A stretch of 63,364 bases of DNA, the filler included, from Diploschistes diacapsis (Eukaryota), in NCBI GenBank assembly GCA_023645945.1. It is 21 parts of 21 records of this genome, joined end to end, with 100 filler letters (N's around TTAATTAATTAA, not from the genome) between each part and the next. Parts side by side here need not be neighbours in the genome. Positions count along the whole stretch, not along the records: positions 33,830 to 35,711 come from JALAIB010002533.1; 20 more parts are not named here. One strand, 5' to 3'. The translations under genes and the position numbers were made by a program. The stretch's first letter is position 1, and every line of letters starts with the position of its first letter. Positions 15,616 through 61,396 of the stretch are shown piece by piece. Below the pieces are notes generated by a model that was given only the letters and a program-made list of their open reading frames with translations, had not been told where the DNA came from and made no database searches.

Positions 15616-18481
15616 ATGTCGGAGTTGCGCTTCGACGGGCAGACTGTGGTCATCACTGGTGCGGGAGGTGGGCTGGGAAAGGCATATGCTGTTTTCTTTG
15701 GATCAAGAGGAGCAAATGTGGTGGTAAACGACCTGGGCGGTTCTTTCAAAGGGGAGGGCCAGTCGACAAAGGTAAGGCCGGGTCTCAAGCTACCCATACC
15801 ACTAATTTTCCAACCCTCACTTAGGCTGCCGATGTCGTCGTTGACGAGATCAAAGCTGCCGGCGGCCAGGCTGCTGCGAATTATGACAGCGTCGAGCATG
15901 GGGAAAAGATCATTGAGACGGCCATCAAGGCTTTTGGGCGGATCGATGTCCTGATCAACAATGCCGGCATCCTTCGGGACGTTAGCTTCAAGAACATGAA
16001 AGATGAGGACTGGGACCTGATCATGAAGGTCCATGTCAAGGGAGCCTATAAATGTGCAAGAGCAGCTTGGCCGCATTTCAGGAAGCAAAAATATGGCAGA
16101 GTCATCAACACTGCCTCAGCTGCTGGCCTATTCGGCAACTTTGGACAGGCCAATTACTCAGGTTTGCAGAATTAGCCCCCTCCAAACCCCAATGCGCATG
16201 GCTGATGGTTACAGCTGCCAAACTTTCTCAGGTTGGCTTCACAGAAACCCTTGCCAAAGAAGGGTTCAAGTACAATATTATCTGCAATGTAATTGCACCC
16301 ATAGCGGCCAGCCGCATGACACAAACGGTAATGCCTCCAGACATGCTGGAACTTCTCCAGCCGGAATGGGTCGTCCCATTGGTCGCTGTTCTTGTCCATT
16401 CTTCAAACAAGCAAGAGACTGGATCGATATTCGAGGTCGGCGGTGGTCACATGGCGAAACTTCGATGGCAACGTGCAAAGGGGGCACTTCTCAAGACCGG
16501 CCAGACCCTAACTCCCGGCGCAATTATTCAGAAATGGAACGATGTGAACGATTTCTCTCAGCCTGACTATCCAAACGGTGCCGCCGATTTCATGGCTCTT
16601 TTAGAAGAAGCGCAGAAACTGCCGGACAATCCACCAGGAATGAATATCGATCTTACCGGTAAAGTTGCCTTAATCACAGGTGCTGGAGCAGGGTAAGCTC
16701 TCCGACTGAACGTCTTGATCTCGATGCTCACTTGGAACAGGCTGGGCCGGGTCTATGCCCTTCTGTTCGCCAAGCACGGTGCTTCAGTCATCGTCAATGA
16801 CCTAGTGGATCCGGATTCAGTTACACAGGAAATACAGAAGCTGGGAGGCGAGGCTGTCGCGAACAAAGCCTCGGCAGAGGATGGTGATGTTGTCGTAAAA
16901 TCCGCGATTGATGCCTTTGGACGTATCGACATTATTGTTAACAACGCGGGTATACTCCGCGATAAGGCATTCCATAACATGGAGGACAAGCAATTTGACC
17001 AGGTATTGGCCGTCCATCTCAAGGGTACCTACAAGGTCACAAAGGCTGCATGGCCCTACATGCTGAAGCAAAAGTATGGCCGGATTGTAAACACGACGAG
17101 CACCAGTGGCATTTATGGGAACTTTGGACAAGCGAACTATGCTGCTGCAAAGCTAGGTATTCTGGGCTTCTCGCGCGCCATAGCTCGCGAAGGCGCAAAG
17201 TACAACATTTTCGTCAACACCATCGCCCCCAACGCTGGCACAAACATGACACGTACAATAATGCCAGAAGAGATGGTACAGGCTTTCAAGCCGGATTACG
17301 TCGCTCCACTGGTTGTTGCATTGTGCTCAGACAAGGTTCCAGACCCGACGGGTGGTCTTTTTGAAGTTGGCAGCGGCTGGCAGGCAAGGACCCGGTGGCA
17401 ACGAACCGGAGGCGCCGGCTTCCCCGTCGACGTCAAACTCACACCAGAGACAGTTCTCCAGCAATGGTCGAAGGTTGTTGACTTTGATGACGGAAGAGCT
17501 GATAATCCTTCCGATAGCAACGACGGTCTCAAAGGCGTCATGGCAAATGCCACCAACAAGAAAGGAGGTAGCAAATCGGGTAAGCTGGAAGGCAAAGTCA
17601 ACCAAGAAATCCTGAACAATATCGAAATGGCCAAGAAAGCGCAAGCGAAAGGTTCGGAATTTTCATACGACGACCGCGACGTCATACTCTACAATCTTGG
17701 ACTCGGAGCTCGACGAACAGAATTGCCCCTTGTATATGAGAACAGTGACTCATTCCAAGTATTGCCAACGTTTGGTGTCATTCCCGCGTTCGGCGTTGCA
17801 ACCCCGTGGAGTATGGACGAAGTGATGCCCAATTTCAATCCCATGATGCTTCTTCATGGGGAACAGTACTTGGAGATCCGAAAGTTTCCTATTCCAACCT
17901 TTGCCAAGTTAGTATCCTACCCAAAGCTCCTCGAGGTTGTGGACAAAGGAAATGCTGCCATTGCGTTCCACGGAACTACCACCAAGGACGCCAACACCGG
18001 AGAAGACATCTTCTATAACGAGTCCGCTGTCTTTGTTAGAGGCTCAGGAGGTTTCGGCGGCCCGTCCAAAGGTCAGGATCGCGGACGCTCGACTGCGGCA
18101 TACAAAGCGCCCCAACGCGCTCCGGATAACGTGATTGAGGAGAAGACCTCGCCCGATCAAGCGGCGCTCTACCGCCTGTCCGGGGATCGTAATCCATTAC
18201 ACATAGATCCAGAATTCTCCAAGGTCGGTGGATTCAAGGATCCGATTCTCCACGGTCTCTGCTTTTTCGGTATCAGTGGCAAGCACATCTACCAGACATA
18301 CGGTCAATTCAAGAACATCAAGGTACGGTTTGCCGGTGTAGTCATTCCGGGCCAAACCTTGCGTACAGAGATGTGGAAGGAGGGAAACATGGTCATCTTC
18401 CAGACCAAGGTCGCAGAGACTGGGAAACTTTGCATTGCAGGTGCCGGTGCGGAGCTTGCCAGCCAGGGCGCCAAGTTATGA
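15616..18481 (+). CDS. FOX2: Peroxisomal multifunctional beta-oxidation enzyme; exons 15616-15771, 15825-16161, 16215-16692, 16741-18481
   Basis: Two SDR domains ([24 protein letters not shown]), MaoC hydratase motif [15 protein letters not shown]-terminal PTS1 AKL. Confidence 0.97.
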
Positions 18482-33829: not shown

Positions 33830-33895
33830 ATATGTAGGTGCGTGGCTGTGGCAGCAGGGGGACCTGAACCCCAGGGCGCACCTTTGGGCGTTACA
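33830..33895 (-). mobile_element. LTR family D fragment
   Basis: Reverse complement matches 44989-45057. Confidence 0.7.
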
Positions 33896-35536
33896 TAAAT
33901 TTTAACGGAAGTAAGAAATCCTTTAATATTTTTTTCTTTGATTTATAAGATTCTAGTAAAAAGATATGAAATATTAAATGACTTTTAGAATATCTTTACG
34001 GTAATAATAAGCGATACGTTTGTTTCCCGATAGTATTTAGCACGCGAAACGGTTTAATGTATCTATATAATAACTTTCTGCTAGGTCTCTTTTGTTATAA
34101 ATTTTTGGTTGAAAGCCACATTAAATCTCTTATATTGTAGATTTTTGGCTGTCGATTTTGATTGTAATATTTTTTCTGTTATTCTTGAGCAGCTATTAAA
34201 TTATTAGTTAATAGTTTTCTTGCTTTTCAATTTCTTTCAGCCGTTCCGTTACGGCTGGCACTTCCTTTTCCCTATATTCGTCTTCGAATATCTGTTGCAT
34301 CGTCGGCTCGTAGCTATATAATGCTTTGAAAGGGGTTATTTTTGTATTAGAATTCATGGAGGAATTATACGTAAATTCGGTTAAATGTAATAGTTCTGGC
34401 CAATCCTCTTAATCCGCACCGTAATATATTCGCAGATAATGCTCGATTGTTTGGTTCTAGCGTTCTGTTTATCTATCGGTTTAAAGATGGAAAGCTATAT
34501 TAAATCTATTTTTTATTTTCGTCTAGTAGCAGAAATCCGATCAAAAGGAACTTATAAATACTGTATTTCGATCTAAAACAATTCTTTTTGGGCCCCCGTA
34601 CCTAATATAGACTTCTCGCATAAAAGTTTCTACCAACTCGCTTAAACTTATTGTTTTAAAATATACTAGATACCGTATCATTTTAATATACTTATTGTTG
34701 AACTAAACCACTACGCCAAAAGATGCGCACCTCTTAGCAAGCAGCAGTTCATGTTTATATTCCGACACACCCCCGTAAACATGGCTCTGCGGCTTTTACT
34801 GTTTACCTGTGTTCTTTCCAGCCAGATCAAAATCTGCCGTGAGCGGGACTCGACCTCAGACCTCTGAACTAAACGGGTGGGGATGCAGCGCAGTGCGCTA
34901 CCCGGGCTCATAACCTGTTGAACTAAACCGCTAGACCAAAAGATGCGCACCCTTTAGCAAGCAGCAGTTCATGTTTATATTCCGACACTTATCCATTATT
35001 ACCAGTATTGAGTCCATAACGGCTCCGTTGCTTTTATTCGATAAAACTTCTATAATAAAATCTATTATAATTTCTTACCAAGGTCCTTAAGATACTAATA
35101 ATGACGTTAAATTATTATATAGTTTATATTTATACATCTTAACACTCTAATATATATCGCAGTTATTTACGTACTACTCGATAGCGGCACGTTACCTTTT
35201 TTAATAAAAATGCCTTTATAACAGTTTTAAGGTCCGTTCGGTACCGAAATATCCTACCAATTTATTATTATAATAAATATATAGAAGTTCTGCTCGTATA
35301 GATTTCTCTATCGAGATATAGATTTTATCTTTATATCGCAATAAACTTTTCTTATCGAATCTTTACGACGTATTACCGACGTCTCGTCGTCGGGTCGTTT
35401 ACTTTAAAAAACTTTATTTTTCTTTAACAAATTTATCCTCTCGTTATAAAGTAATAATTATATCTCGCAATTTCTCCGACGGCGATTTATATACCGTTTC
35501 GTTTATTATTACTTCCTAAATAACCAAAAGTAGGAC
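33896..35536 (-). mobile_element. RIP-degenerate Gypsy integrase region, interrupted by a TRIM
   Basis: GYFGTERT, PWxEIIIDF, IMDK/YIKM, AFHLxTDRQTERxNQTIEHYLRIY motifs. Confidence 0.85.
34696..34987 (-). mobile_element. Complete TRIM (miniature non-autonomous LTR retrotransposon), 292 bp
   Basis: 72-bp TG..CA direct repeats (34696-34767, 34916-34987), TSD CTTAT on both sides, PBS GGTTATGAGCCC, G-rich PPT. Confidence 0.9.
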
Positions 35537-37792
35537 TGTTATGATCTTTATCTATACAAGGTATACACGAGTAGAGTCAAGGTGGGTTTGGTTTCTGTTA
35601 GAAGAGGAATATGATAAGAGAAGAAGATAAAATAATTATAGATTTTAAATTATCTTTAAAAAAAAGGTTCTTTAAAAATAAAAATAACGAATATAAATTA
35701 ATCCCGAGTAANNNNNNNNNNNNNNNNNNNNNNNNNNNNNNNNNNNNNNNNNNNNTTAATTAATTAANNNNNNNNNNNNNNNNNNNNNNNNNNNNNNNNN
35801 NNNNNNNNNNNCTCCCCCCCCCATAAAACGTCCTACACATATAATAAGCACAATTGGACACCCCAACCAACATAGCGCCAGGGGACGGACGGGGCCTGGG
35901 CTCTGCTGCATTAGAAACGATGCTAGAAAATAATCAAAGAAGCAACAGGAACAGGAACCAACGATCTGCTAATAGTGGAAATAGACGGTGAACAGAGTCG
36001 TATACAGCAACAGTCAAGGGACATGGGAATGGGGATGGGGTGCACTTATCGTCTGTTACACACTTGCTTGCCTTTGTTCCAACCGAAGCAAACAAGCCAG
36101 AGTGAACCCCGGCCCAACGCTGTCCCTGCAGTAGTGGCACCCGTTGCTACTTACTTTGTACGCAGTAATCCAGTTATACAGATGCTTTAGAACAAAAGTG
36201 CCCTCAAAAAACATAAATTCTCAGAAGAAGCCCCGTACTATCGCCCCTACGGATCAATTCATGCTCTACCCCCCCACACAACGTAGTAGTAGTATTGGAC
36301 ATCACGAAAGCAGATGGATGGTCGCAACCACCCGCAACCACCCGCCCGGGGGCTGTTGCAAGCAATCATCATCCAGCGGCCGGCCAGCCAGCCACCTGGC
36401 GCCTCTAGACCTCGGGAATGTATTGTTTATCGCAGTAAAAAAAGGAATCTAGACCGTGTGCCTGCATGACCACTGACACTGACCAATGACCAATGATCCC
36501 CTTTTCTCTCACCGCCTCCGGAACATCTTTCTCCCCGGATTTCCCAGCCCTTCCCAGCCACAAGCGATCGGCAGAAAAAGCGATCGATAATGCACGGCGC
36601 TCGGGGATCTTGGGGGTAGAAGCTTCTGAAAGAAAAAATTGGAGAGAAAGACAAATATAGATGGTCTAGAATTCCTGAGTTTTTTTAAAATGGGCACGTG
36701 GGCGGACCACAGCTTTCCACCACGTACGTATCGTTCTCCCCAGTGCTCCCCATCTGCTAGAGAAGTCTTGGGAATTGGTACCGGGTTTTCAAGGGCATTA
36801 ATCGAACAACAAAGCAAACTGACTGCATCCTCATGCCGCCGGACCACTTCGGCTCTCTTGTACTCAACAACACCGAACGAACGAACGCCTCTTTCATTAT
36901 GGGCCCCATGAAAAAAAGGAAGCGCTGCGGGGCTTATGGCGCTTTTTTGGCCAAAGCAGATGGATGAAATGGAGTCCATTTTTTCCACACCAGTGGTAGG
37001 CGCTTCATTATTTTCGCCGCTTTATCACACACTGTTCCCCGCCTTACTATGAGAAGAGCGTTAGCGTGCAGTACGCTGTATTAAGTTCTGCTCGGTTCTT
37101 TGTCTGATATTCATCTGGGACAGCTTTTTACGGCCGCATTATATTATTCAAACCAGAGAGACTGCATAGGTTCCAGCCAGAATAGCCCATGACAAGGCCT
37201 CGTCCCGTAAGATCAAGTAGTGAGATGCGTCTTTCCATCTTTAGCCTTTGGCTCTTCCACAGCAAGGAAAACTGCCTTCACTTTCTCCTTCCAAAACGGT
37301 TCGCTGCCCCAGGTAGCCTGTTTAAGGAACCCATCATCCCTCTAGCCTGTGGTCCCCATAACCGGTGTATCCCAGGAATTCTTGAGCGAGACCAGAGTTC
37401 ATTATCACGAAGTTCTGGTTAAGATTATGGTTCAAAGAAAAGGCAAGAAACCAGAATCCAGCAGGAACAGAGCGCCATGTAAGGCGATACGCCAGCCTAC
37501 AGAGCCGAATTCTTCGTTCATCAATCCTAGGTGCGTAGATGGGGTATGTATGTCAGAAGACTGAAAAATACTGCCAATACGAGAAATATCGGGAGCGGTT
37601 ATTGTGATCTATAATTTGAATAAATTATAGACTCTAAACTCAGTTATATCGACAATATAACGCTACTTAAATTTATTATATATATCTTACAGNNNNNNNN
37701 NNNNNNNNNNNNNNNNNNNNNNNNNNNNNNNNNNNNTTAATTAATTAANNNNNNNNNNNNNNNNNNNNNNNNNNNNNNNNNNNNNNNNNNNN

Positions 37793-60542: not shown

Positions 60543-61396
60543 TGTTGAGCAGACAGGCAGAAGGCATGGCTGGGAATACAACTGAGTTCCAGAAGGAGGT
60601 TCATTTCAGCTGAACCTCCTAGAATTCCAACTAAACCGAATAAGGAATAGTGTAAATAATAGGATTTAACGTATCCCATAAGAATAAAAGTTTATAAAAT
60701 AGGATAACTTCCTAAATAAGATTTTTAAACTTCAAAATATCTATTACGTTAATAAATAGATTATGAGCCCGGATTAATATTTACTTTATTACGTTTAATC
60801 GTTTATTAAAATTACGTCTCCCGATAATTATTACGGTTACGAACGCGGGCACCGATTACGTTACCTAACGCAGGTTAAATCGAAGAGATCCAAAAAAAAA
60901 AACCCAGGATCTGAATCATAAGACCCCAAGGTAAGCTAATTCAAAGATAGAAGTTATACTACTTTAAAAGAACGCGGGACTTTAATACGCTGGCCTAGAA
61001 TAGGTCTAAATAAGAAATAATTGGATCTAGATATCATCTATATAGGCCAACGAAAAACAACCTTCTTCTCTTTCTCGCCAATATCGAAGTTTAGTTAAAC
61101 CACGCTGAACCCTTCGATTACCTTTATTTTTATTATAGAAAATTACCTTCTATATTATTTATTAATCACTTACTAACTATAAGTTATTTATTCAATAAAT
61201 CTTCTTTATTTACGAAAAAATAGCAACAAGATAGACGACATCTTATTTAAAAAGCGGGTTGCTCCCATCCTAAAAAAAAAGAATTAATAGTAATAATTCG
61301 AACTTACACGTATATATCTTGAAAATAAAGAGATAAACTACGTCCTTAATAATCAGCTACTATCGCTTACTACAGTTACCCTAGATAATTCTATAT
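60543..61396 (+). mobile_element. Copia family C 5' LTR, PBS and degenerate gag
   Basis: LTR followed by GATTATGAGCCCGG at about 60759; internal part matches 28976-29290. Confidence 0.8.

What the first reader, a model, noticed from the sequence alone, without database searches (positions are those of the whole stretch)
34691..34992. Complete 292-bp fungal TRIM sharing the Copia half-tRNA primer site
Seen: 72-bp LTRs differing at a few positions, a 148-bp non-coding core, a perfect TSD CTTAT and little RIP damage. It splits the host integrase at IMDK/YIKM. Its PBS GGTTATGAGCCC matches the RIP-altered PBS of Copia family C at 60759, and GCGCAGTG nearby resembles the initiator tRNA D arm. Established: Ty5 and Drosophila copia prime from the tRNAi-Met anticodon stem-loop, and TRIMs are best known from plants and animals. 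Inference: a minimal parasite of Copia machinery small enough to evade RIP.
Basis: partly seen in the sequence, partly recalled or inferred. Interest (0 to 1): 0.75.

Follow-up and report, generated by a model that had tools for sequence, protein, structure and literature searches.

The report
Tiny fungal retrotransposon with split tRNA
A 292-base non-coding jumping element in a fungus borrows the copying machinery of a larger Copia element and carries two halves of a decayed tRNA gene on either side of its primer site, an unusual compact variant of the small tRNA-bearing retrotransposons described in 2024.

Summary
The element is real: window 34696-34987 (minus strand), 72-bp LTRs, 148-bp core, TSD CTTAT, inside a mutated Gypsy integrase. 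It is a family: 8 complete copies (6 with perfect TSDs), 19 lone LTRs (16 with perfect TSDs), 2 tandem arrays. With Copia family A it shares only the half-tRNAi-Met primer site, the polypurine tract and the LTR tips, and 5 loci are TRIM-Copia hybrids, so it is a Copia parasite and not a simple deletion. A TATA box sits at -33, as in host tRNA genes. The LTR halves pair on the sense strand only, which would close the RNA into a 25-bp panhandle. Pol III transcription is inferred, not shown: the B box has one non-consensus base and no RNA data were found. Verdict: new variant of a known kind.

The parts
34988..34992 (.). Target site duplication, 5' side of the element (CTTAT on +)
34916..34987 (-). 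5' LTR, 72 bp; begins with the same 10 nt as the Copia A LTR and ends with the same 7 nt
34974..34979 (-). TATAAA, starting 33 nt upstream of the tRNA-like first base
   Evidence: sequence; host tRNA genes have TATA[AT] at -30 to -38 in 15 of 19
34927..34946 (-). tRNA-like 5' half (acceptor stem start and D arm) with A box at 34928-34938 and a T4 run at 34938-34941; also the right arm of the LTR's imperfect palindrome
34902..34915 (-). Primer binding site, 14 nt complementary to the anticodon stem-loop of host tRNAi-Met; directly abuts the LTR
34885..34898 (-). Second stretch complementary to the D arm of tRNAi-Met (14 bp here; 20 contiguous pairs in the longer subfamily)
34865..34873 (-). 9-nt repeat of the LTR end (TTTAGTTCA) just before the B-box arm
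34843..34865 (-). tRNA-like 3' half (variable loop and T arm) with a B box at 34846-34855 that has one non-consensus base; a T4 run follows at 34829-34832
34768..34779 (-). Polypurine tract; with the LTR start it matches the Copia A 3' end at 20 of 21 nt
34696..34767 (-). 3' LTR, 72 bp, of the commonest family haplotype; its left (U3) arm can pair with the RNA's 5' end
34691..34695 (.). Target site duplication, 3' side of the element
33830..35711 (-). Host contig (G000:C1706): AT-rich, stop-riddled LTR-retrotransposon pol fragment whose integrase is interrupted by the element
   Evidence: Gypsy assignment from recalled motif

Best explanation
A non-autonomous LTR retrotransposon (TRIM) mobilised in trans by a half-tRNA-primed Copia, most likely family A of this genome, and built on a decayed tRNA-Arg gene that is split by the LTR end and the primer site. 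SHOWN in sequence: repeated integrase-type insertion (5-bp TSDs), lone-LTR formation, primer site/PPT/LTR tips shared with Copia A, hybrids with Copia, and tRNA-Arg similarity in two ordered halves. INFERRED: (1) RNA starts near LTR position 37-42, from a Pol III type 2 promoter whose A box lies in the 5' LTR and whose B box lies in the core, so only a complete 5' end has a promoter and lone LTRs are silent. (2) The RNA's 5' end pairs with its 3' U3 arm (about 25 bp), which holds the ends together for strand transfer across a short R region. (3) The 5' half of tRNAi-Met anneals over up to 34 of its 39 nt and primes reverse transcription inside a Copia particle. (4) Strand transfers between co-packaged RNAs give copies with unlike LTRs and the TRIM-Copia hybrids. 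(5) Short length keeps lone copies mostly below the RIP threshold. My odds: Copia-dependent TRIM about 0.9; tRNA origin of the two halves about 0.8; working Pol III promoter about 0.4.
For: Family and TSDs. Shared cis sites only: (20 of 21 nt PPT plus LTR start; 14 nt PBS). The B-box arm occurs at 18 sites, all TRIM copies. Hybrids: L013, L015, L017, L026, L009; in L009 the Copia part begins at LTR position 298, 35 nt after the Copia TATA at 263, where a cap site is plausible. tRNA-Arg(TCT): joint score 56.5; 0 of 500 and 0 of 400 dinucleotide shuffles reach it taking the best of 32 or 29 tRNA-like genes; 20 real Copia-type 5' ends score 30.5-37; second best is tRNA-Arg(CCT). A related copy in run X3 has one extra base where the tRNA alignment has its gap (one contig). 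TATA at -33 against -30 to -38 in 15 of 19 host tRNA genes. Panhandle: -31.2 kcal/mol sense against -10.8 antisense; LTR fold z -3.0 to -4.7 in 4 of 5 copies on the sense strand and never below -1.0 on the antisense strand. LTR variants at positions 35/36 and 53/54/58 reassort, which fits a U3/U5 join between them. RIP-type changes per 220 bp: 1-5 in 7 lone short copies, 25-55 in 5 units within tandem arrays or Copia hybrids.
Against: The B box departs from the tRNA consensus at one near-invariant base in the genome's copies, whereas Helenus conserves GGTTC (PMC10886601); the X3 variant also departs, at the next base. Rfam finds nothing at E <= 10. The A half alone is weaker (5 of 400 shuffles), and this copy's own 5' LTR type gives a joint score of 46.5 with a different best tRNA. 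Only T4 runs are present, one of them inside the core, so a clean Pol III terminator is lacking. TATA about 30 nt before a start also fits Pol II. The LTR alignment shows no real compensatory change, and one common LTR variant folds weakly (z -1.1). No stop-free full-length Copia RT among 80 hits, so no working partner is seen. RIP contrast is confounded with age: two lone long-variant copies have 17-18 changes and hybrid L013 is unmutated.
Confidence: 0.6

Rival explanations
1. An ordinary Pol II-transcribed TRIM: the LTR TATA drives Pol II, and the tRNA-derived pieces are relics of a Helenus- or SINE-like ancestor, kept for RNA structure and not as a promoter.
For: Degenerate B box; only T4 runs; TATA spacing fits Pol II as well; the A-box half doubles as the pairing arm, which could explain its conservation.
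Against: The TATA lies at the host tRNA-gene distance from the tRNA-like first base; the A-B gap of 72 nt is of intron-bearing tRNA-gene scale (recalled range); both halves are retained in order in a 292-bp element; a 72-bp LTR leaves little room for a Pol II promoter (inference).
Confidence: 0.33
2. The tRNA likeness is chance; the element is a plain TRIM.
For: No Rfam hit; short local alignments; my scoring scheme was chosen after seeing the match.
Against: 0 of 400 shuffles for the B half and for the joint score; 20 real Copia-type controls at 30.5-37 against 56.5; the reverse strand scores 32.5; both halves pick the same isoacceptor family.
Confidence: 0.1
3. An internal deletion derivative of a full Copia with the same 72-bp LTRs, collapsed or missing in this fragmented assembly.
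For: L026 has a TRIM-type LTR directly before an intact Copia gag (PF14223, E 4e-22); the assembly has 4361 contigs and searches give lower bounds.
Against: The L026 LTR ends in 11 nt of Copia LTR sequence, so it is itself a hybrid; none of the 49 LTR-motif sites follows a Copia RNase H end among the loci read; the core shares only PBS and PPT with Copia A; the 4 non-TRIM PPT junctions all lead into the long Copia A LTR.
Confidence: 0.07
4. The hybrids and unlike LTRs arose by DNA-level recombination or gene conversion between integrated copies or free cDNA, not by co-packaging.
For: L009 has only a 4 of 5 target-site match and unlike flanks; L010 has no TSD; L013's TSD is visible for one base only. 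Tandem arrays can form either way (PMC7215508, passages).
Against: Junctions fall at the PBS (14 nt shared), 11 nt into U5, and near the Copia start site, i.e. at reverse-transcription landmarks with too little homology for ordinary recombination (inference). The window copy has unlike LTRs and a perfect TSD.
Confidence: 0.3

Closest known systems
Helenus, fungal families (TRIMp3; Kojima 2024, PMC10886601)
   Same: Non-coding TRIM with tRNA-derived A/B boxes, PBS to the tRNA-iMet anticodon loop abutting the LTR, G-rich PPT, 5-bp TSD, lone LTRs, Copia partner with unrelated LTRs. The core of LTR-1_PGr starts with a similar 20-nt stretch (supplement part 1; by eye).
   Different: Helenus holds both boxes inside each LTR (LTRs 104 bp or longer, elements 311 bp or longer in Table S1); here the LTR is 72 bp with the A box only, and the B box lies past the PBS. 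No Ascomycota in that table. GGTTC of box B is not intact here.
Cassandra (5S-bearing plant TRIM; PMC7215508, PMC10886601)
   Same: Pol III-type promoter in a TRIM, short R region, tandem arrays, predicted end-to-end hairpin of the element RNA.
   Different: 5S (box A/C) promoter wholly within each LTR; plant hosts; primer is the tRNA 3' end.
SMART / FRetro129-type small LTR elements of grasses (as cited in PMC10886601)
   Same: Same length (292 bp), non-coding, Copia-mobilised.
   Different: The SMART core is reported to resemble its Copia partner; here only PBS, PPT and LTR tips are shared. No tRNA-derived boxes are mentioned for SMART in the passage read.
Ascomycete TRIMs such as RLX_TRIM_Sinope of Parastagonospora nodorum (PMC8549362)
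   Same: Short, GC-rich, recently active TRIM in a RIP genome; escape from RIP by compactness proposed there.
   Different: Primer, partner and promoter were not in the passages read; sequence relationship untested.
Ty5 / Drosophila copia half-tRNA priming; Ty1 CYC5-CYC3 cyclisation (PMC10886601 citing; PMC4974528)
   Same: Priming from the tRNAi-Met anticodon stem-loop; pairing of RNA ends that aids reverse transcription.
   Different: Those are autonomous Pol II elements; here the end pairing is encoded by a palindromic LTR and is only predicted.

Membership tests
TRIM | Two short LTRs with TG..CA ends, total under 1 kb, non-coding core | tested here: met
TRIM | PBS next to the 5' LTR and PPT next to the 3' LTR | tested here: met
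TRIM | Multiple independent insertions with TSDs | tested here: met
   6 of 8 complete copies and 16 of 19 lone LTRs have perfect 5-bp TSDs
TRIM | Mobilised in trans by an autonomous LTR element | tested here: inconclusive
   shared cis sites and 5 hybrid loci; no stop-free full-length RT among 80 hits; no functional test
Helenus (fungal) | tRNA-derived sequence with box A and box B inside the LTR | tested here: not met
   box A in the LTR, box B in the core 72 nt downstream
Helenus (fungal) | Box A TRGCY..YGG and box B GGTTC conserved | tested here: not met
   box A close (one departure in TRGCY); box B reads GGTC
Helenus (fungal) | PBS to a tRNA anticodon loop, 5-bp TSD, Copia partner | tested here: met
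Helenus (fungal) | Sequence homology to a listed Helenus family | not tested
   only parts 1, 10 and 11 of 11 of the supplement were read, by eye, plus two term searches; no alignment was run
TRIMp3 (Pol III-driven TRIM) | Transcription by RNA polymerase III | not testable with these tools
   no RNA holder listed; promoter layout only
Deletion derivative of a Copia (SMART-like) | LTR or core homologous to an autonomous element beyond PBS/PPT | tested here: not met
   limited by a fragmented assembly

The most novel reading that the evidence does not exclude
A Pol III-transcribed LTR retroelement whose promoter is assembled only across the 5' LTR-primer junction: the LTR end, primer site and D-arm-binding stretch sit where a tRNA's anticodon arm and intron would be. 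Lone LTRs and the 3' LTR are then silent, the LTR can shrink to 72 bp under RIP, and the RNA closes into a 25-bp panhandle to cope with an R region of perhaps 10-15 nt. It would be a distinct minimal design for TRIMp3 elements and their first case in a RIP-competent ascomycete, with hybrids that record sharing of Copia particles.
Probability: 0.35. Interest if true: 0.72.

Novelty: new variant of a known kind. Interest (0 to 1): 0.52.

Why it matters
How TRIMs are transcribed and which autonomous element carries them is mostly unresolved; PMC10886601 states that only Cassandra is a validated Pol III TRIM and that the basis of partner dependence is not known. Here the partner can be named from shared cis sites and five hybrid loci, and the whole cis machinery fits in 292 bp, so each part (A box, B box, primer extension, panhandle) can be mutated singly. 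If the split promoter works, screens that look for a tRNA inside LTRs would miss such elements. The family also gives an internal contrast for the idea that short elements escape RIP. If the promoter does not work, this is one more ascomycete TRIM with a well-supported partner.

Tried and rejected
Rfam scan of 34600-35100: no match at E <= 10. Site 60759 as the partner: no link to Copia A/B gag by blastn, tblastn or tblastx, so left unverified. Idea that the TRIM core's 3' end derives from a Copia 3' UTR (L014): rejected; the upstream sequence is the start of a Copia B LTR inserted in reverse into a TRIM core. Idea that D-arm pairing is a TRIM invention: rejected; 20 metagenome loci carry PBS plus D-arm complement, several before Copia-like gag frames, and none of them showed a nearby second LTR within the flank held. 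A tighter metagenome pattern found nothing; the viral collection gave 1 unrelated-looking hit. Expression: no RNA holder listed. Insertion polymorphism: run X2 has contigs that skip 297 bp at the site, but the host Gypsy is itself repeated, so this is not locus-specific evidence. Run X4 gave no cover. Dating by LTR divergence: rejected, since differences fall on segregating sites. Covariation in the LTR stem: 1 of 21 pairs flagged, no real compensatory support. Literature: 9 searches listed no TRIM with boxes split by the LTR end, but the library lacks most subscription papers and Repbase/Dfam could not be searched. The primary Ty5 priming paper was not held. The search on RIP length limits for linked repeats returned nothing. 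Earlier-finding look-ups by sequence and by place were empty.

Full report
Observation. The element lies at window 34696-34987 on the minus strand: 72-bp LTRs with TG..CA ends and 5 differences, a 148-bp core, and CTTAT on both sides. It is 50% GC in flanks of 29-33%. Removing it and one TSD restores one reading frame, DSILVIMDK|YIKMIRY, which I recognise from memory as a Gypsy-type integrase; no family scan was possible on the stop-riddled frame. The window is a string of short contigs joined by N spacers, and this element sits on an 1882-bp contig, G000:C1706, so neighbours in the window are not real neighbours. The host looks like a filamentous ascomycete (inference from the gene-rich contig, and the RIP-like damage); the run that holds most of the stretch is labelled lichen metagenome.

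It is a family. A DNA search of the genome gave 43 matches from 39 scored candidates, and an LTR motif occurs at 49 sites against 1 for the control; both are lower bounds. Of 8 copies with both LTRs visible, 6 have perfect 5-bp TSDs, 1 has a 4 of 5 match and 1 has none. Of 19 LTRs with neither PBS nor PPT beside them, 16 have perfect TSDs, 1 a 4 of 5 match and 2 none. Two loci are tandem arrays (L011, L014), 4 are cut by contig ends, and 1 is rearranged. There are two core subfamilies, of 148 and about 155 bp. Related sequence is laid by contigs in 3 of 4 runs tested, from 3 studies; in X2 the summed depth over the LTR far exceeds that over the core, as many lone LTRs would give.

Partner. The junction CAACA-PBS occurs at 17 sites, which include three Copia-type 5' ends besides the TRIM. 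One gag frame scores PF14223 at E 4e-22. Copia A has a 442-bp LTR with 125 first-look candidates. Against its 3' end, LTR and 5' internal part, the TRIM shares 20 of 21 nt across the PPT and LTR start, the 14-nt PBS and the LTR tips, and nothing else above chance. The B-box arm of the core occurs at 18 sites, all TRIM copies. No working partner is visible: of 80 RT hits only 2 short ones lack stops.

Hybrids. L013 is Copia A LTR, TRIM core, TRIM LTR. L015 and L017 are Copia A LTR, TRIM core, TRIM LTR, then Copia A PBS and gag. L026 is a TRIM LTR ending in 11 nt of Copia LTR sequence, followed by Copia B gag. L009 is TRIM LTR, core, then the TRIM LTR start fused to the Copia A LTR from position 298, 35 nt past its TATA. 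The junctions fall at landmarks of reverse transcription, which I read as strand transfer between co-packaged RNAs; DNA-level recombination is not excluded, and TSDs of the hybrids are incomplete. In 4 of 8 complete copies the two LTRs differ at positions 35-36, including transversions, and variants there reassort with those at 53/54/58. The window copy has one haplotype in each LTR and a perfect TSD, so its LTR divergence does not date it. Chimeric TRIMs are reported in plants (bioRxiv 10.64898/2026.03.01.708851, passages).

Primer. The host initiator tRNA (G000:C166) pairs with the PBS over 14 nt ending in the anticodon stem. The long subfamily pairs a further 20 contiguous nt across the D arm (duplex -67.0 kcal/mol); the window's subfamily gives -51.6 and the three Copia 5' ends -37.9 to -42.5. 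This extension is not peculiar to the TRIM: 20 metagenome loci have PBS plus D-arm complement, several before Copia-like gag frames.

Split tRNA. Aligning the element to host tRNA genes showed that the LTR from position 42 matches the 5' end of tRNA-Arg(TCT) (17 of 20) and the core matches its variable loop and T arm. The joint score is 56.5. None of 500 shuffles (32 genes) or 400 shuffles (29 genes under 200 nt, 3 dropped) reached it; 20 real Copia-type 5' ends scored 30.5-37, the reverse strand 32.5, and the next-best gene is tRNA-Arg(CCT). Alone, the B half was reached by 0 of 400 shuffles and the A half by 5 of 400. These scores use the commonest LTR type; this copy's own 5' LTR gives 46.5. 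The tRNA set is incomplete (63 of 1216 candidates scored). One contig of run X3 has an extra base where the alignment has its single gap. The A box is in the LTR and the B box 72 nt further on, with the LTR end, PBS and D-arm stretch between them; a 9-nt repeat flanks that insert. TATAAA starts 33 nt before the tRNA-like first base; 15 of 19 host tRNA genes have TATA[AT] at -30 to -38. Against function: the B box lacks one consensus T, only T4 runs are present, one of them inside the core (3 of 19 host tRNA bodies also hold T4), and Rfam finds nothing.

Panhandle. The LTR is an imperfect palindrome centred at positions 41/42. On the sense strand it folds at z -3.0 to -4.7 in 4 of 5 copies (one at -1.1); on the antisense strand z is -1.0 to +1.4. 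Seven of 24 pairs are G-U, which explains the strand bias and suggests selection at RNA level. In an RNA from position 37 of the 5' LTR to position 50 of the 3' LTR the two ends pair (z -3.2; duplex -26.8 to -31.4 against -7.9 to -10.8 antisense in 4 copies). There is no compensatory covariation among these close copies. End pairing is known for Ty1 (PMC4974528, passages) and predicted for Cassandra (PMC7215508, passages).

RIP. Against real copies as references, C>T plus G>A changes per 220 bp are 1-5 in 7 lone short copies, 17-18 in 2 lone long copies, and 25-55 in 5 units inside tandem arrays or Copia hybrids; CpA, CpT and CpC are hit and CpG mostly spared. This fits protection by shortness but is confounded with age, and hybrid L013 is unmutated.

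What is known. Kojima 2024 (PMC10886601; main text parts 1-4 of 6, supplement parts 1, 10 and 11 of 11 and two term searches) describes fungal TRIMs with tRNA-derived LTRs, mostly primed from the tRNA-iMet anticodon loop, with 5-bp TSDs and Copia partners, in Basidiomycota only. Both boxes lie in the LTR, the shortest LTR listed is 104 bp and the shortest element 311 bp. It cites SMARTs at 292 bp as the shortest reported. Pereira et al. 2021 (PMC8549362, passages) propose that TRIMs under 400 bp escape RIP in an ascomycete. Donnart et al. 2017 (PMC5445492, passages) give other primer sites for the main ascomycete Copia clades; I did not place the partner in a clade. The element therefore works like a Helenus but fails the membership feature of both boxes within the LTR. 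Nine searches listed no paper on a split layout; Repbase and Dfam were not searchable. An earlier AI note on another genome (e1-7574941) reports boxes on either side of an LTR boundary in a basidiomycete TRIM; it is an unchecked lead that the layout may recur.

Verdict. Observation confirmed; interpretation right in outline but largely published. The new content is the split tRNA-Arg-derived layout, the LTR-encoded panhandle and the hybrids that identify the partner. New variant of a known kind; interest 0.52; the Pol III reading has probability about 0.35-0.4 and would deserve about 0.7.

Noticed in passing
whole window: Outside 3972-27780 the window is a chain of roughly 2-kb contigs joined by N44-TTAATTAATTAA-N44 spacers; adjacency across spacers is artificial.
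   Followed up: yes
window 60759-60772: One-mismatch PBS-like site in AT-rich sequence; downstream frames matched none of the Copia gag regions held, so it may be a further damaged family or chance.
   Followed up: partly
L143-L162 (metagenome contigs): Many Copia-type 5' ends carry a second stretch complementary to the tRNAi-Met D arm a few bases after the half-tRNA PBS, suggesting a widespread two-part primer site.
   Followed up: partly
L049 (G000:C3116:1038-1148): A TRIM LTR rearranged into inverted pieces that break at the central palindrome; at a contig end, so it may be a snap-back product or an assembly artefact.
   Followed up: no
L088 (G000:C2269:20547-20618): A second initiator-tRNA-like gene with anticodon CAG in place of CAT and a damaged acceptor stem.
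   Followed up: no
L085 (G000:C731) and L090 (G000:C1017): Two related tRNA-like sequences in AT-rich DNA with intact B boxes, possibly a tRNA-derived SINE family.
   Followed up: no
host tRNA genes, L052-L081: 15 of 19 nuclear tRNA genes have a TATA element at -30 to -38, suggesting TATA-assisted Pol III promoters in this fungus.
   Followed up: partly
L015, L035, L036, L049: A repeat rich in short GC-rich tandem units interrupts several Copia and TRIM loci; not classified.
   Followed up: no
L050 (G000:C705): A third Copia-type family with a short, GC-rich, little-mutated LTR and the same half-tRNA PBS.
   Followed up: no
L028 and L041: Two lone TRIM LTRs share the same upstream flank; only L028 keeps the TSD, suggesting duplication or rearrangement after insertion.
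   Followed up: no
window 16052-18481: ORFs resembling a peroxisomal multifunctional beta-oxidation enzyme in the gene-rich contig (name recalled, not scanned).
   Followed up: no
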